A stretch of DNA of 64,000 bases from the sequence record OL960581; one strand, 5' to 3'. The notes under the pieces are model-generated. The model worked only from the letters and a program-made list of their open reading frames with translations, did no database searches and was not told the origin of the DNA. Each line of letters starts with the position of its first letter. Position 1 is the first letter of the stretch. Positions 11,340 through 60,490 of this stretch are shown here, piece after piece. Both the position numbers and the translations under genes were made by a program. Origin of the DNA: Escherichia phage vB_EcoM_SA20RB.

Positions 11340-11942
11340 TTATAGATTAAATTCTTCAAAATCGAGAGTATAGATAGTGTATGTTGAATACTTTTTATAC
11401 TCATATCTATCTGCAATTCTAAATACACTTCCAGCCGGTATCATTACTTCTTGTTCATCCGAAACTAATTCCATATTACGATAGCGATGGCTATCTGGAA
11501 ATTTAAAGCTTGGATTATATTCTTTACAGCGTAGAGCTTTTATAGCATACTCCTGGAAATTGAATACCATAGGAGCTTTGAATTCAAAAATAACCTGTGT
11601 GTTATATTCTAAACCAGAAGCAAAATGTAGAGCTATATTTTTATCATATGAAGCTGATACGACTTTATCAAATGTAATAATATCAATTCCTTGATTTAAT
11701 ACTTGCTTAGTCTCAGCTGGAACACCTCTCCAAAGAGGTTTATCGTTTGGTTCCAAACGAGATTTGATTATTTCATTTAACCAAGAGTGGTCGTCTGGCT
11801 TATTAGTAATACAATGAATTAAAAGTTCAATTTCGGATAAATTAAATCCTTCAGAAAGTAATTCTTCACGAATAGAAGCACGCACCGATGCATCCATTGA
11901 TTTGATTTTAAAATCTTTTAATTGCATTGCTGAATATTTCAT
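11340..11942 (-). CDS. modA: ADP-ribosyltransferase ModA (200 aa)
   Basis: 200 aa; tandem with paralogous modB; position after srd as in T4. Confidence 0.65.
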   Translation of the reverse strand: MKYSAMQLKDFKIKSMDASVRASIREELLSEGFNLSEIELLIHCITNKPDDHSWLNEIIKSRLEPNDKPLWRGVPAETKQVLNQGIDIITFDKVVSASYDKNIALHFASGLEYNTQVIFEFKAPMVFNFQEYAIKALRCKEYNPSFKFPDSHRYRNMELVSDEQEVMIPAGSVFRIADRYEYKKYSTYTIYTLDFEEFNL

Positions 11943-12562
11943 TCAACTACCTCAATATCATACACTTTAAATGTTCCAAATGAATCGTGTAATTTTTCTT
12001 TTGAAATAGAAGTTATTTTATACTTTCCAATTGGAATCATCCATTCTTGTTCACGCACAATCATCATTAAGTTATCAGTACGTTCTGAATCTAATCCATC
12101 AGTATCTTCATATGTATACTTAAACTCAGTATTAGGAGAAGAAAGTATAATATCGCTGATATGGTCAGAATAATTAAAAGCTTTATCAGTTTTTAAGCGA
12201 AATATTATTTCAGTGAAATATTCAGCATAAGAAAAACCGCACGCTGTGTGCAAACTAGTAGTAAATGAATCTACTCTGTTCGTTGAAAACACTTCTCCAA
12301 CTTGTAAATCTTTAATGAGTTCTTTTGTCGATTTTGATATACCACGATATAACTGATAAGGCGATTTAGTTAAATGCTTTTTAATGATTTTATTTAACTG
12401 TCTGTGAAGAGCTTCATTCTTTTTGGCTTCCATACATTGCCAAAGAATTGACTGTTCAAAGTCAGTAAATTTTTCACAGACCTTTTTATACATATCATAT
12501 TGAAAATCAACGCTTTCAGCTTTTATAGATAACTGTTCAACATCTGCAAGATTAATAATCAT
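11939..12562 (-). CDS. modB: ADP-ribosyltransferase ModB (207 aa)
   Basis: start moved to ATG 12560-12562 preceded by GGAGG SD (track ATG 12574 has no SD); 207 aa. Confidence 0.65.
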   Translation of the reverse strand: MIINLADVEQLSIKAESVDFQYDMYKKVCEKFTDFEQSILWQCMEAKKNEALHRQLNKIIKKHLTKSPYQLYRGISKSTKELIKDLQVGEVFSTNRVDSFTTSLHTACGFSYAEYFTEIIFRLKTDKAFNYSDHISDIILSSPNTEFKYTYEDTDGLDSERTDNLMMIVREQEWMIPIGKYKITSISKEKLHDSFGTFKVYDIEVVE

Positions 12563-12588
12563 GATAGCCTCCATATACTTCAGAAGCT

Positions 12589-57272: not shown

Positions 57273-57854
57273 CTAACCGAGCTTTTTAGTTAATTCATTC
57301 CAATGTTTTCTGCACAAAGAAACATAAATTTCATCACCAATACAGATTTGATTACCTTCTTTAACTGGTGTTCCATCTTCCATTAATCGAGCTGTCATAA
57401 TAGCTTTTTTACCACAATGACAAACTGCTTTTAGTTCAATAAGTTTATCTGCAATCGCCAAAAGTTCTTTAGAACCTTCAAATAATTTTCCAGCGAAATC
57501 AGTCCTTAGTCCATAAGCCATAACAGGAACATTATATGTATCAACAATTCGGCTTAATTGATGCACCTGTTCAGTTTTTAAAAACTGAGCTTCATCTACA
57601 AATACGCAATGAATATCTTTTTGTGCTTCAGCCCATTTATAGAACTCAAAAATATCCATATCATCCGTAATAATATTCGCTTCCTGTTTAATTCCAATGC
57701 GAGAAACGACTTCACAAACAGAATCGCGAGTATCAATAGCAGGTTTAAGAACTAATACACCCATTCCGCGTTCTTTATAATTATGCGCAGCAGTTAAAAG
57801 AGAAGCAGATTTTCCAGCATTCATTGCTGCATAAGTAAAAATTAAACTCGCCAT
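57273..57854 (-). CDS. tk: thymidine kinase (193 aa)
   Basis: P-loop AAMNAGKSASLL; 193 aa as T4 Tk. Confidence 0.85.
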   Translation of the reverse strand: MASLIFTYAAMNAGKSASLLTAAHNYKERGMGVLVLKPAIDTRDSVCEVVSRIGIKQEANIITDDMDIFEFYKWAEAQKDIHCVFVDEAQFLKTEQVHQLSRIVDTYNVPVMAYGLRTDFAGKLFEGSKELLAIADKLIELKAVCHCGKKAIMTARLMEDGTPVKEGNQICIGDEIYVSLCRKHWNELTKKLG

Positions 57855-57863
57855 ATCACCTTC

Positions 57864-58049
57864 TTAAAGCGTATTCACATAAGCTATTAATTCGTTTTCT
57901 TTCTTATCAAACCGGTCAGCAAATTCTTCTTGCTGTTCGGGAGATAGCGGGCCGTATTCATCATAAAAGGTGTTTGCTTCTGTATGCTCATCTAGAAGTT
58001 CATGGATAAGCTCAAACAATTTATCTTTTTGTTCTTTACTCAGACTCAT
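57864..58049 (-). CDS. hypothetical acidic protein (61 aa)
   Basis: ATG start. Confidence 0.45.
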   Translation of the reverse strand: MSLSKEQKDKLFELIHELLDEHTEANTFYDEYGPLSPEQQEEFADRFDKKENELIAYVNTL

Positions 58050-58219
58050 ATATTAATTTCCAGGAGTTTTAAAATAATTCGCTTTTGCTTAAATATTTCC
58101 ATAGTTAAATGGTCAGTATCTTTTTGACCGATTCCAATAGCAAAACCTTTATTAACAGCGAGTTCAATTAAATTATCAAGCTCACGTAACACTTCATATT
58201 GTAACTCAAAACTATTCAT
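58046..58219 (-). CDS. small hypothetical protein (57 aa), not in ORF track
   Basis: ATGA overlaps at both ends; hand-translated MNSFELQYEVLRELDNLIELAVNKGFAIGIGQKDTDHLTMEIFKQKRIILKLLEINI. Confidence 0.45.
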   Translation of the reverse strand: MNSFELQYEVLRELDNLIELAVNKGFAIGIGQKDTDHLTMEIFKQKRIILKLLEINI

Positions 58220-58422
58220 TTTGGTTTACCTTCTTTAACGAAATCGGGATAAGGATAAAATCCTGAATAAAATCCTTCACCTTTATGATTGATGCATCCT
58301 TTATTAGAACAATAGCACCAATAGTCGAAATCACAAGCCATTTCATCATTACATAAAGCAAAAACAACCGGCCATTTACACTTTTCACAATGGGCATTTT
58401 TAAGAATACTAGTTTGGCTCAT
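58216..58422 (-). CDS. cysteine-rich small protein (68 aa)
   Basis: ATG 58420-58422 in ATGA overlap with upstream stop (track start TTG 58443); CEKCK..C..C..CYC..C. Confidence 0.45.
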   Translation of the reverse strand: MSQTSILKNAHCEKCKWPVVFALCNDEMACDFDYWCYCSNKGCINHKGEGFYSGFYPYPDFVKEGKPK

Positions 58423-58631
58423 AACCATGTAACCTTTAAGCAATATTCTTCTACATGTTGTTTACGACCTTTCCTATCAATAAAGGTATATTCAACAAAT
58501 GTTCCAATATAGTCTTTATCTACATCATGAGGACTATTAATTGGGCATTTAGTACGGCAAATGCGTTCCCATTGACGAATAATTTCTGCTTTGTTTTTAG
58601 GATCAAACGGATGCGGGTAATGTACTTTCAT
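58419..58631 (-). CDS. hypothetical protein (70 aa)
   Basis: ATG start. Confidence 0.45.
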   Translation of the reverse strand: MKVHYPHPFDPKNKAEIIRQWERICRTKCPINSPHDVDKDYIGTFVEYTFIDRKGRKQHVEEYCLKVTWL

Positions 58632-59082
58632 AATCCACCACTATTAAATCAATATCAGGAGTAAACATGTCGATTAATTTAGAAACCTTATCCCAATCAC
58701 CGCCAGCAATACCACAACCTATGCGTGGAATGTAAATTACTGGTTTAAACAAAAGGGTCTCTGCCTGTAGATTTAATTCTATCATGCAGTTTACTAAAGC
58801 ACCATAATCAAGATTAGGACCCGGTTCGTATTGCGTATACAGGTTATAGCATATACCAAATCCCGTAGGACTATGTTTAAAAACAATAGACATATCGCCT
58901 AATTTATCGCGAGAACCGTACTCGGTAGTAGTTTTATCTATTTCTAAAATTTTAGGATAGGCCCTCGCTAATTGACCCGCTACACCTGAACCCATAGTAT
59001 GAAAGCAGTTGCACCCGTGCGCAATAATATTACCTTGAAGAAATAGGGCGACAATATCGCCCTTGATATATTTTACAATCAT
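58603..59082 (-). CDS. macrodomain protein, TARG1/OARD1/DarG-like (putative ADP-ribose hydrolase, 159 aa)
   Basis: motifs GDIV..AHGCNCFHTMGSGVAGQ and PRIGCGIAGGDW resemble TARG1 HCISEDCRMGAGIA and PRIGCGLD; GAGGA SD. Confidence 0.55.
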   Translation of the reverse strand: MIVKYIKGDIVALFLQGNIIAHGCNCFHTMGSGVAGQLARAYPKILEIDKTTTEYGSRDKLGDMSIVFKHSPTGFGICYNLYTQYEPGPNLDYGALVNCMIELNLQAETLLFKPVIYIPRIGCGIAGGDWDKVSKLIDMFTPDIDLIVVDYESTLPASV

Positions 59083-59426
59083 CTAGTACTCAATCCTCGA
59101 TTATAAGAATCTACCAAACGGTCAACCATTGAATGACAAGCGGCTTTATCTTTCTCCTCCGCAACTGAACATTCTAAGGTATTCCACTTTTTAGCATATC
59201 GTTTTAACAATGTATCATTTTTATATCTACTTGATTTATCTCTTTCTCCGTCTTTATATGCATATATTAATTTCTGCGCAAATTCAGCTTGGCATGCTTT
59301 ATTTTTCCCACAATAATCTGCCGCAGTGCGATTTACATATTCTCTAATTTCAGTATATGATGTATCTGCTGACGCAGAAGCAGAAAATGAAATTAATCCT
59401 ATACATAAAACCAAAATTTTAGTCAT
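59079..59426 (-). CDS. secreted/periplasmic protein (115 aa)
   Basis: signal peptide MTKILVLCIGLISFSASASA; four Cys. Confidence 0.5.
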   Translation of the reverse strand: MTKILVLCIGLISFSASASADTSYTEIREYVNRTAADYCGKNKACQAEFAQKLIYAYKDGERDKSSRYKNDTLLKRYAKKWNTLECSVAEEKDKAACHSMVDRLVDSYNRGLSTR

Positions 59427-59964
59427 TTACTATTTCCAAAAGTTTATTATTTTTAAGGTAATTAGCCTTTTCTAGGACTTCAGAAGCATATTTAGAACCT
59501 GCTTTAACATTCCATCCCGAATTATAAGAGGATATTGCTTTTCTTATATCACCCTTATGTATATTTAACCAATAAGAAAGTTCAATGTACGCCCAGGAAG
59601 CTGAATTGGATCGTTTATTCAACATTCTTTTTATTTCGGCATCGGTCATATTATAACCAAGTTCCTTAACTCTTGCTCGCATAGTAGGCAAATAATTTTG
59701 GAACATTCCGTAGGCGTGATGCTTTGGTTTAGATTTTAAATTAACTCCGGCAGAGCTTTCTTGCCATAAAATAGCAGCCATTATATGACCCAATCCGCTC
59801 TTGTGGATGTTTTTGTGTGTTTTATATTTTCCATCCTTAGAAAATTGTTCCCCGAATTGATATGCGTAGCGCATGTTATCGAGTTGGACATTACTGAAAG
59901 TATGCTCGGAGCTATGTGCCATCATTGAAATGGCCAATAGACCAGCGAGTAGTGCTTTTCTCAT
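59419..59964 (-). CDS. periplasmic lytic transglycosylase-like protein (SLT domain, 181 aa)
   Basis: signal peptide; SLT-like motifs LWQESS, GMFQ, SSYNSGWN. Confidence 0.5.
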   Translation of the reverse strand: MRKALLAGLLAISMMAHSSEHTFSNVQLDNMRYAYQFGEQFSKDGKYKTHKNIHKSGLGHIMAAILWQESSAGVNLKSKPKHHAYGMFQNYLPTMRARVKELGYNMTDAEIKRMLNKRSNSASWAYIELSYWLNIHKGDIRKAISSYNSGWNVKAGSKYASEVLEKANYLKNNKLLEIVND

Positions 59965-59971
59965 GCTTACC

Positions 59972-60433
59972 TCATTGAGTTTTAATTACGGCTTTAGAAG
60001 CCTTTCCTGGTAAACGACGACTGTTGATAATTGCCATCCTACATTGAAGTGACGGGTCTTTGAACTTCGCGTTAGGTTTACAAACTGTAAATCCAAGCCA
60101 AAGATTTCCATCTGTGATTTCTAAACGTCCAGGACGATATTCAACCCCATCAATAAAATCCTCGTCAATGTCAGGACGCGGAGGCATACTCAGGAATTCA
60201 TTAACTTCTAAAACATGGTCTTTTATTTTGTGGAATAATTCAAAAACATATGTCTCATCAATCTCCCGTTGAATTGCACGATCAAGAAGATGTTGAGAAT
60301 ATTTTAGATGAAACGATGAGACCCCTGCTGCTTTTGATGCCTCACGAATCTCATTGTTAATTTGACGAAACTCCGACTCAAAGTGACGACGAAGTTTATT
60401 TCGACGGATAAAAACTTCTGTATTGATAGTCAT
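59972..60433 (-). CDS. regB: endoribonuclease RegB (153 aa)
   Basis: 153 aa; N-terminus MTINTEVFIRRNK; early promoter upstream. Confidence 0.75.
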   Translation of the reverse strand: MTINTEVFIRRNKLRRHFESEFRQINNEIREASKAAGVSSFHLKYSQHLLDRAIQREIDETYVFELFHKIKDHVLEVNEFLSMPPRPDIDEDFIDGVEYRPGRLEITDGNLWLGFTVCKPNAKFKDPSLQCRMAIINSRRLPGKASKAVIKTQ

Positions 60434-60460: not shown

Positions 60461-60490
60461 ATTATACCACAGTCAAGAGGAAAAGTAAAC
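60461..60490 (-). promoter_or_regulatory. T4-type early promoter
   Basis: plus attata 60461-60466, gtaaac 60485-60490. Confidence 0.55.

What the first reader, a model, noticed from the sequence alone, without database searches (positions are those of the whole stretch)
58603..59082. TARG1/DarG-like macrodomain gene in the tk-regB early block
The 159-aa product carries the two signature segments of TARG1/OARD1-type macrodomains (AHGCNCFHTMGSGVAGQ and PRIGCGIAGGDW), the fold used by the DarG antitoxin to remove ADP-ribose. In a phage that also encodes ModA/ModB ADP-ribosyltransferases (11340..12562), this could be an eraser of ADP-ribosylation, an anti-DarT-type counter-defence or a regulator of phage-driven ADP-ribosylation. 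I do not recall a characterised macrodomain enzyme in T4.
Basis: partly seen in the sequence, partly recalled or inferred. Interest (0 to 1): 0.65.

Follow-up and report, generated by a model that had tools for sequence, protein, structure and literature searches.

The report
Phage macrodomain Tk.4/AdfM, anti-DarT2 candidate

Summary
The ORF is real: 58603..59082 on the minus strand, 159 aa, with both quoted motifs. It passes Pfam Macro. An AlphaFold model (pLDDT 94) matches TARG1, Poa1p, BT1257, DarG and SCO6735.

The window is a T4-like phage (Tequatrovirus). The gene is tk.4, lying between vs and tk.3. Two 2025-26 papers bear on it:
- T4 tk.4 was the only transposon hit needed on a DarTG2 host. 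A clean knockout sensitised T4, and the gene was named adfM.
- An unrelated, DarG-type macrodomain of PhiKZ, also called AdfM, removes ADP-ribose from thymidine in vitro.

Three refinements:
1. The TARG1/DarG catalytic Lys (and TARG1 Asp) are absent. An invariant Gln84 sits at the Lys position, as in SCO6735, where Gln85 is essential for cleaving thymidine-ADP-ribose.
2. The closest characterised relatives by sequence are phage Adpp ADPR-1''-phosphate phosphatases (39% identity). This is a live rival or second activity.
3. This copy is only 58% identical to T4 Tk.4. It is a JS98-type allele recombined into T4-type flanks.

No T4-type Tk.4 protein has been assayed biochemically.

The parts
58603..59082 (-). 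tk.4 / adfM coding sequence, 159 aa, a single stand-alone macrodomain
   Evidence: ORF; Pfam Macro 32 bits, above cut-off 22; PHROG 335; AF2 pLDDT 94.3, pTM 0.89; Foldseek top hits TARG1/Poa1p/BT1257/DarG; annotated Tk.4 in Shfl2, JS98, T4 and RB69 at the same position
58972..59022 (-). aa 21-37, AHGCNCFHTMGSGVAGQ. Contains family-invariant H22, G23, N25, C26, G33 and A35. H22 corresponds to Poa1p H23 and Gary Adpp H24. N25 corresponds to PhiKZ AdfM N23. GSGVAG is the first ADP-ribose (phosphate) binding loop.
   Evidence: invariant columns; alignment to Poa1p; N25 aligned to gp104 N23; Adpp H24A; gp104 N23A reduces activity; coordinates
58831..58845 (-). aa 80-84, N-L-Y-T-Q. The invariant Gln84 sits at the position of the catalytic Lys of TARG1 (K84) and DarG (K80) and of the essential Gln85 of SCO6735.
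   Evidence: profile-to-sequence and profile-to-profile alignments; invariance in 57 homologues and in Adpp proteins; SCO6735 Q85A is dead (PMC9411070)
58693..58728 (-). aa 119-130, PRIGCGIAGGDW, the second (diphosphate-binding) loop. Ala126 sits at the position of TARG1 Asp125. T4 has GAGIGKGNW here.
59079..59082 (-). ATGA overlap of the vs stop codon with the tk.4 start codon, suggesting translational coupling within the regB-vs.1-vs-tk.4-tk.3 gene string
58600..59050 (.). Recombined allele segment. It is 80-96% identical to JS98 (Dhakavirus) but only 42-70% to T4. The flanking vs/vs.1 are 95-100% and tk.3 is 93-95% T4-like.
   Evidence: sliding identity on alignments
60461..60489 (-). Sigma-70-like promoter (TTTACT-17-TATAAT with TG) just upstream of regB. 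It is a candidate early promoter for the co-directional string that includes tk.4. Inferred only.
   Evidence: The number of promoter-like sites in the region is not above that of shuffled sequence, so this is a consensus match only.

Best explanation
The ORF is this phage's tk.4 (adfM) gene. It encodes a 159-aa, single-domain macrodomain of the ALC1-like class (the class of TARG1, DarG and SCO6735). It is made early from the regB-vs.1-vs-tk.4-tk.3 gene string.

Most likely it acts as an 'orphan antitoxin'. When a host DarT2 toxin attaches ADP-ribose to thymidines of single-stranded phage DNA, the enzyme binds the ADP-ribose in the cleft formed by the GSGVAG and GCGIAGG loops. It then hydrolyses the ribose-thymine bond, releasing ADP-ribose and restoring replicable DNA.

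Catalysis would not use the Lys of DarG/TARG1. An invariant Gln84 would position the distal ribose for water-mediated cleavage, helped by His22 and Asn25, as proposed for SCO6735.

Shown here: the ORF, the fold, orthology and synteny with T4 tk.4, and the residue at the Lys position.
Shown by others: T4 tk.4 is required for growth on DarTG2 hosts, and a Gln-type macrodomain can cleave thymidine-ADP-ribose.
Inferred: this 58%-identical allele does the same, and the protection is enzymatic.
For: Fold and family:
- Macro fold and class.
- PADLOC's only hit is the DarG model.

Orthology with T4 tk.4:
- Same locus as T4 tk.4, 58% identity over the full length, E 1e-70.
- All 15 family-invariant residues are present.

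Genetic and biochemical precedent:
- T4 tk.4 was the single HIDEN-SEQ hit on a DarTG2 host. A clean knockout sensitised T4, and the gene was named adfM.
- T2 and T4 lacking adfA/adfN stay DarTG2-resistant, so another factor was expected.
- Gln84 aligns with DarG K80, TARG1 K84 and BT1257 Q82.
- SCO6735 is 54% identical to BT1257. It has Gln85 at that site, Q85A is inactive, and the enzyme rapidly removes DarT-made thymidine-ADP-ribose and rescues E. coli from DarT.

Context:
- The NARP1 genes that give Adpp its known role are absent from the window. No coliphage appears in the NARP1-Macro table.
- The allele is recombined between phage genera, as expected for a counter-defence gene under diversifying pressure.
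Against: - No T4-type Tk.4 protein has been assayed on ADP-ribosylated DNA. The T4 evidence is genetic only and comes from a preprint.
- This allele differs from T4's at 42% of residues, including the diphosphate loop (GCGIAGGDW versus GAGIGKGNW).
- Its nearest biochemically characterised relative is an ADPR-1''-phosphate phosphatase: Gary Adpp, 39% identity and 116 bits on the family profile, against 46 bits for Mtb DarG.
- It lacks the five-residue-longer 'mobile loop' that the SCO6735 authors link to high DNA activity.
- It is mildly acidic (pI 5.0), although PhiKZ AdfM is too.
Confidence: 0.6

Rival explanations
1. It is mainly an ADPR-1''-phosphate phosphatase (Adpp/Poa1p-like). It would convert the ADPR-1''-phosphate made by RES-domain NADase defences (aRES), or by Tpt1/KptA-type RNA repair, into ADP-ribose. 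It may do this in addition to DNA de-ADP-ribosylation.
For: - Best PDB sequence hits include yeast Poa1p (E 1.6e-9), well above DarG (5e-5) and TARG1 (0.01).
- Purified Vibrio phage Gary Adpp converts ADPR-1P to ADPR and is needed to overcome aRES.
- Gary Adpp is 39% identical to this protein (E 1e-26). It shares H-x-C-N-C, N-x-Y-x-Q and GCGLAGGDW.
- The H24A mutant made in that study targets the residue equivalent to His22.
- Homologues at 33-37% identity sit beside Adps-like and Namat-like genes in Acinetobacter phage Liucustia, and beside PNK/RNA ligase in a Vibrio phage.
- GenBank and PHROG label the family 'phosphatase'.
Against: - Adpp's demonstrated benefit needs the NARP1 enzymes Adps and Namat. 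tblastn finds neither in the window.
- No Escherichia, Shigella, Salmonella or Klebsiella phage is listed among NARP1-associated Macro genes.
- The only phenotype known for the syntenic T4 orthologue is against DarTG2.
- Many macrodomains show ADPR-1''P phosphatase activity in vitro without it being their biological role (stated, Discussion).
Confidence: 0.2
2. It removes ADP-ribose from another nucleic-acid or small-molecule target of a host defence. Examples are ADP-ribosylated RNA, another DarT variant's product, or an ADPR-derived signal. The JS98-type and T4-type alleles would then differ in target.
For: - The two alleles are only 58% identical although their flanks are 95-100% identical, and they differ in the substrate loops.
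- SCO6735 and TARG1 act on several substrate classes.
Against: - There is no direct evidence for any such target.
- All family-invariant active-site residues are shared by both alleles.
- HIDEN-SEQ found tk.4 only with DarTG2 among the systems tested.
Confidence: 0.12
3. It is an eraser or regulator of the phage's own Alt/ModA/ModB ADP-ribosylation (or RNAylation) of host proteins.
For: The same window encodes two ModA/ModB-type ADP-ribosyltransferases (PHROG 832), and both gene sets are early.
Against: - Alt, ModA and ModB modify arginine (established knowledge). ALC1-like macrodomains characterised so far act on Glu/Asp esters, thymidine or 1''-phosphate, not Arg.
- The gene lies 46 kb from modA/modB.
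- Homologues occur in many phage groups, including Felixounavirus, Pakpunavirus and Vibrio and Acinetobacter phages. Whether those phages carry Mod enzymes was not tested here.
- T4 tk.4 is dispensable on hosts lacking DarTG2.
Confidence: 0.04

Closest known systems
T4 Tk.4 = AdfM (anti-DarT factor Macrodomain; bioRxiv 10.1101/2025.11.20.689424)
   Same: Same locus between vs and tk.3, same length class, and 58% identity over the whole protein (E 1e-70). All family-invariant residues, including H22, N25 and Q84, are shared.
   Different: 42% of residues differ, and the diphosphate loop is GCGIAGGDW rather than GAGIGKGNW. There is a 4-aa C-terminal extension and a 29-nt rather than 4-nt overlap with tk.3. 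The allele is JS98 (Dhakavirus)-type (93% aa) and sits inside T4-type flanks. Its DarTG2 phenotype is untested.
SCO6735 of Streptomyces coelicolor / BT1257 (Gln-type ALC1-like macrodomains; PMC9411070)
   Same: Same fold class. A Gln replaces the catalytic Lys. PRIGCGxAGGxW loop. BT1257 is the best PDB sequence hit (E 4e-10) and SCO6735 scores E 8.5e-8. SCO6735 cleaves thymidine-ADP-ribose and Q85A is dead.
   Different: About 25% identity. The phage protein lacks the roughly five-residue-longer mobile loop after the Gln. It is acidic rather than basic.
Adpp of Vibrio phage Gary / yeast Poa1p (ADPR-1''-phosphate phosphatases; bioRxiv 10.64898/2026.01.28.702374)
   Same: 39% identity to Gary Adpp (E 1e-26), the same invariant motifs, and the His equivalent to Poa1p H23 / Adpp H24. 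Same PHROG label, 'phosphatase'.
   Different: Not next to the NARP1 genes Adps and Namat. Shorter loop after the Gln. The syntenic T4 orthologue has a DarTG2 phenotype instead.
DarG2 antitoxin macrodomain and PhiKZ gp104 AdfM (Cell Rep 2026, PMC13309987)
   Same: Same fold (TM about 0.75 to Taq and Mtb DarG), same conserved Asn, and the same proposed role of reversing DarT2 modification.
   Different: DarG and gp104 carry the F-P-T-K catalytic Lys motif, and gp104 matches Mtb DarG at E 9e-25. The window protein has Gln there, matches DarG only at E 5e-5, scores 27.7 bits against the NCBIfam DarG cut-off of 250, and has no DarT-binding C-terminal domain. The two proteins called 'AdfM' are therefore separate macrodomain lineages.
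Human TARG1/OARD1
   Same: Top Foldseek hit (E 3e-9). Shared AH-x-C...MG-x-G-x-A and PRIGCG...W segments.
   Different: The K84/D125 catalytic dyad is replaced by Q84/A126. About 20% identity.

Membership tests
Macro domain superfamily (Pfam PF01661) | Profile match above the curated threshold | tested here: met
   32 bits against a cut-off of 22, E 1.3e-7, covering profile positions 2-117 of 118
Macro domain superfamily (Pfam PF01661) | Three-layer alpha/beta/alpha fold with two Gly-rich ADP-ribose-binding loops | tested here: met
   AF2 model with pLDDT 94.3. 150 PDB macrodomain matches at E<=0.001. GSGVAG and GCGIAGG loops.
Macro domain superfamily (Pfam PF01661) | Binds ADP-ribose | not testable with these tools
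   Needs ITC, crystallography or a dot-blot with purified protein
TARG1/OARD1-type hydrolase | Catalytic Lys84/Asp125 dyad | tested here: not met
   The family profile aligned to TARG1 places Gln84 at K84 and Ala126 at D125. The TARG1 sequence was recalled from memory; its K84/D125 numbering and its match to the PDB 4j5r hits are consistent.
DarG (DarG2) antitoxin | Catalytic Lys in the F-P-T-K motif (Taq K80) | tested here: not met
   hhalign probability 98.7%: N-L-Y-T-Q84 aligns with N-F-P-T-K. The same result comes from hmmsearch.
DarG (DarG2) antitoxin | C-terminal DarT-binding domain, an adjacent darT gene, and a score above the equivalog cut-off | tested here: not met
   159 aa consisting of the macrodomain only. 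The neighbours are vs and tk.3. NCBIfam DarG scores 27.7 bits against a cut-off of 250.
T4-type AdfM (Tk.4) | Orthologous position and full-length similarity to T4 Tk.4 | tested here: met
   Lies between vs and tk.3 in both genomes. 58% identity, E 1e-70, no gaps.
T4-type AdfM (Tk.4) | Required for plating on DarTG2-carrying hosts | not testable with these tools
   Shown only for T4. Needs a deletion or complementation with this allele.
Gln-type ALC1-like macrodomains (SCO6735/BT1257) | Gln at the position of the DarG/TARG1 Lys | tested here: met
   Gln84 aligns with BT1257 Gln82. SCO6735 Gln85 is stated to be equivalent to K80/K84. Gln84 is invariant in 57 homologues.
Gln-type ALC1-like macrodomains (SCO6735/BT1257) | Extended 'mobile loop' (about 5 residues longer) after the Gln | tested here: not met
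   BT1257 needs a 6-residue insertion relative to the family profile between the Gln and the conserved Tyr. The window loop is of TARG1/DarG length.
Adpp / Poa1p ADPR-1''-phosphate phosphatase | Sequence relationship to Adpp, and the conserved His (Poa1p H23, Adpp H24) | tested here: met
   39% identity, E 1e-26 to Gary Adpp. His22 is invariant.
Adpp / Poa1p ADPR-1''-phosphate phosphatase | Genomic association with NARP1 (Adps + Namat) | tested here: not met
   No tblastn hit better than E 2 in the window. No enterobacterial phage appears in the authors' NARP1-Macro table. Only 64 kb of the genome could be searched.
Adpp / Poa1p ADPR-1''-phosphate phosphatase | Dephosphorylates ADPR-1''-phosphate | not testable with these tools
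   Needs LC-MS with purified protein

The most novel reading that the evidence does not exclude
The T4-family Tk.4 macrodomain may be a dual-purpose counter-defence enzyme. One Gln-type active site would both strip DarT2-made ADP-ribose from thymidine in phage DNA and dephosphorylate ADPR-1''-phosphate made by RES-type NADases. The sharply diverged JS98-type and T4-type alleles, swapped by recombination inside otherwise near-identical flanks, would then be tuned to different targets or different DarT variants.
Probability: 0.2. Interest if true: 0.55.

Novelty: already known. Interest (0 to 1): 0.28.

Why it matters
DNA ADP-ribosylation by DarT toxins is a widespread anti-phage defence. T-even phages appear to carry a layered set of erasers: AdfA, the NADAR enzyme AdfN against guanine modification, and this macrodomain against thymidine modification. 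That this gene is the DarTG2 countermeasure is already reported for T4, so the finding mainly confirms a known element.

Three questions remain open:
1. Does a macrodomain without the DarG/TARG1 lysine really hydrolyse thymidine-ADP-ribose in phage?
2. Does the same family's proven ADPR-1''-phosphate phosphatase activity give it a second anti-defence role?
3. Why do two 58%-identical alleles circulate by recombination among otherwise near-identical T4-like genomes?

Tried and rejected
- A four-sequence MAFFT alignment with TARG1 and PhiKZ gp104 mis-registered the central region. It was replaced by profile-based alignments.
- The phmmer pairwise alignment to BT1257 shifted the Gln by six residues. 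The family-profile alignment corrected this.
- A sub-sequence PDB search meant to show the SCO6735 Gln region aligned only the C-terminal loop. Equivalence to SCO6735 Gln85 therefore rests on BT1257 and on the authors' statement.
It was rerun without that row.
- Isoelectric point and net charge do not separate DNA-ADP-ribose hydrolases from Adpp phosphatases. PhiKZ AdfM is as acidic as this protein.
- The promoter/terminator scan found no more sites than in shuffled sequence.
- The hairpin inside the 5' end of tk.4 is not exceptional in stability (z = -1.25).
- The one bacterial homologue examined (Pelagimonas) is a stand-alone gene with no DarT, RES or NARP neighbours, so its context was uninformative.
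- Pfam gave nothing for ModA/ModB. PHROGs did.
- A K127 in T4's loop was considered as a substitute catalytic Lys. It was rejected because close T4-type relatives have Asn or Gly there.

Full report
**Observation.** The two quoted segments are aa 21-37 and aa 119-130. It is a real gene.
- It passes the Pfam Macro threshold (32 bits against 22).
- It matches PHROG 335 at E 1e-71.
- It has tblastn homologues in 2,789 phage records.
- Its start codon overlaps the stop codon of the upstream gene vs in an ATGA.

**What the window is.** Four kilobases around the ORF are 98% identical to many Tequatrovirus (T4-like) genomes. In annotated relatives the order is regB, vs.1, vs, Tk.4, Tk.3 ... tk, and the ORF is Tk.4. 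Its neighbours were confirmed by profile searches: RegB, an SLT-domain Vs.1, Vs, and DUF7202 Tk.3.

**Fold and class.** An AlphaFold2 model built on 57 homologues has pLDDT 94.3 and pTM 0.89. Foldseek against the PDB gives, in order:
- TARG1 first (E 3e-9, TM 0.72-0.75)
- yeast Poa1p
- BT1257
- Thermus and Mycobacterium DarG macrodomains
- SCO6735

By sequence the order differs: BT1257 E 4e-10, Poa1p 1.6e-9, SCO6735 8.5e-8, DarG 5e-5, TARG1 0.01. NCBIfam's DarG equivalog scores 27.7 bits against a cut-off of 250. PADLOC's only hit is DarG, and it is weak.

**Catalytic residues.** In 57 homologues the invariant residues are H22, G23, N25, C26, G33, A35, D49, G62, N80, Y82, Q84, P119, G122, G124 and W130.
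- A family profile aligned to TARG1 puts Gln84 on the catalytic Lys84 and Ala126 on Asp125.
- Profile-profile alignment to DarG macrodomains (probability 98.7%) puts N-L-Y-T-Q84 on N-F-P-T-K, the DarG catalytic Lys.
- The same profile puts BT1257 Gln82 on Gln84.

This is a known variant. SCO6735 is 54% identical to BT1257 and has Gln85 at this position. Q85A and Q85E are inactive. The enzyme removes DarT-made thymidine-ADP-ribose faster than DarG or TARG1 and rescues E. coli from DarT. The authors propose a water-mediated mechanism in which the Gln positions the distal ribose (PMC9411070). The phage protein lacks the longer 'mobile loop' of that subclass.

**What is already known about this gene.**
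- The HIDEN-SEQ preprint (bioRxiv 10.1101/2025.11.20.689424) infected a DarTG2 host with a T4 transposon library and found one significant hit, tk.4. A clean knockout sensitised T4 to DarTG2. The authors named the gene adfM and inferred, without biochemistry, that it removes ADP-ribose from DNA.
- Earlier work had shown that T2 and T4 stay DarTG2-resistant without adfA and adfN, and had predicted a further factor (PMC11825919).
- A Cell Reports 2026 paper independently named PhiKZ gp104 'AdfM'. It showed that gp104 removes ADP-ribose from the thymidine of TNTC DNA in vitro and neutralises DarT2 (PMC13309987).

I translated gp104 from that paper's construct. It matches Mtb DarG at E 9e-25 and has the F-P-T-K Lys motif. 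It matches the window protein only locally (E 0.001). The two 'AdfM' proteins are thus different macrodomain lineages that converged on one role.

**A rival from the same family.** A 2026 preprint (bioRxiv 10.64898/2026.01.28.702374) shows that a phage Macro protein, Adpp of Vibrio phage Gary, is a Poa1p-like ADPR-1''-phosphate phosphatase. It lets the NARP1 NAD+-rebuilding pathway overcome RES-domain NADases.
- Its sequence, taken from their Table S1, is 39% identical to the window protein (E 1e-26) and 35% identical to T4 Tk.4.
- It shares H-x-C-N-C, N-x-Y-x-Q and GCGLAGGDW.
- The H24A mutation made in that study (primers listed in their Table S4) corresponds to His22.
- On the family profile, Adpp proteins score 116-144 bits. 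BT1257 scores 71, TARG1 66 and DarG 46.
- More distant homologues sit beside Adps-like and Namat-like genes in an Acinetobacter phage, and beside PNK/RNA ligase in a Vibrio phage.

Against this being the main role here:
- No NARP1 gene is detectable in the window.
- No enterobacterial phage is in the authors' list of NARP1-linked Macro genes.
- The syntenic T4 gene has the DarTG2 phenotype.

A dual activity is not excluded.

**This copy is a different allele.** The protein is 100% identical to those of phages PBM-1 and OE5505 and 93% identical to JS98. It is only 58% identical to T4 and RB69 Tk.4 and about 57% to T6 Tk.4. Sliding identity shows:

| Segment | Identity to T4 | Identity to JS98 |
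|---|---|---|
| vs.1 and vs | 95-100% | 41-87% |
| within tk.4, about 59050 to 58600 | 42-70% | 80-96% |
| tk.3 | 93-95% | 62-78% |

Downstream of tk.3 the sequence diverges from T4 again. The allele was therefore exchanged by recombination between T-even genera. The most visible active-site difference is the diphosphate loop, which is GCGIAGGDW here (the family consensus) and GAGIGKGNW in T4.

**Verdict.** It is already described for the T4 orthologue, so I rate it 'already known'.

My best explanation (confidence 0.6) is an early-expressed orphan-antitoxin-like hydrolase that removes DarT2-made ADP-ribose from thymidine, using a Gln-type, SCO6735-like mechanism. Rivals:
- ADPR-1''-phosphate phosphatase: 0.2
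- another ADP-ribose target or allele-specific target: 0.12
- eraser of Mod/Alt modifications: 0.04

What remains untested is any biochemistry for T4-type Tk.4, and the function of this particular allele.

Noticed in passing
window 57800-59990: Fine-scale mosaic. Segments that are 95-100% T4-like (vs.1, vs, tk.3) alternate with segments that are 80-96% JS98 (Dhakavirus)-like (most of tk.4; ORFs below 58440 and around 57850-58030). One stretch of about 150 nt (58090-58220) matches neither.
   Followed up: partly
window 59045-59063 (minus strand): An 8-bp GC-rich hairpin, AGGGCGAUAUUGUCGCCCU, lies within codons 7-13 of tk.4, in the part of the gene that is nearly identical to T4. Folding of the surrounding 91 nt is not exceptional (z = -1.25), so it may only reflect the conserved KGDIVALF coding sequence.
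   Followed up: partly
window 58603-58631: tk.4 overlaps the start of tk.3 by 29 nt here and in JS98, but by only 4 nt in T4. The JS98-type allele carries a 4-aa C-terminal extension.
   Followed up: partly
window 58216-58443 (minus strand): A 75-aa ORF with a strong 'Phage zinc binding domain' match (PF23895, E 3e-29). It occupies the place where T4 has tk.1/tk.2-type genes, and this stretch is not alignable with T4.
   Followed up: no
window 59419-59964 (minus strand): Vs.1 carries an SLT lytic-transglycosylase domain (PF01464, just above threshold) and a hydrophobic, signal-peptide-like N-terminus. Vs (59079-59426) also has a signal-like N-terminus.
   Followed up: no
window 11340-12574 (minus strand): The ModA/ModB-type ADP-ribosyltransferases are invisible to Pfam at E<=0.01 and are recognised only by PHROG 832.
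   Followed up: yes
literature (PMC13309987 and bioRxiv 10.1101/2025.11.20.689424): The name AdfM has been given independently to two non-orthologous macrodomains. PhiKZ gp104 is DarG-type with the catalytic Lys. T4 Tk.4 is Gln-type and Adpp/BT1257-like. This is a likely source of annotation confusion.
   Followed up: yes
L003 901-4474 (Acinetobacter phage Liucustia): A Tk.4 homologue (33-36% identity) directly follows genes annotated ribose-phosphate pyrophosphokinase and nicotinamide phosphoribosyltransferase. This is an NARP1-with-phosphatase type operon, next to RNA ligase 2.
   Followed up: partly
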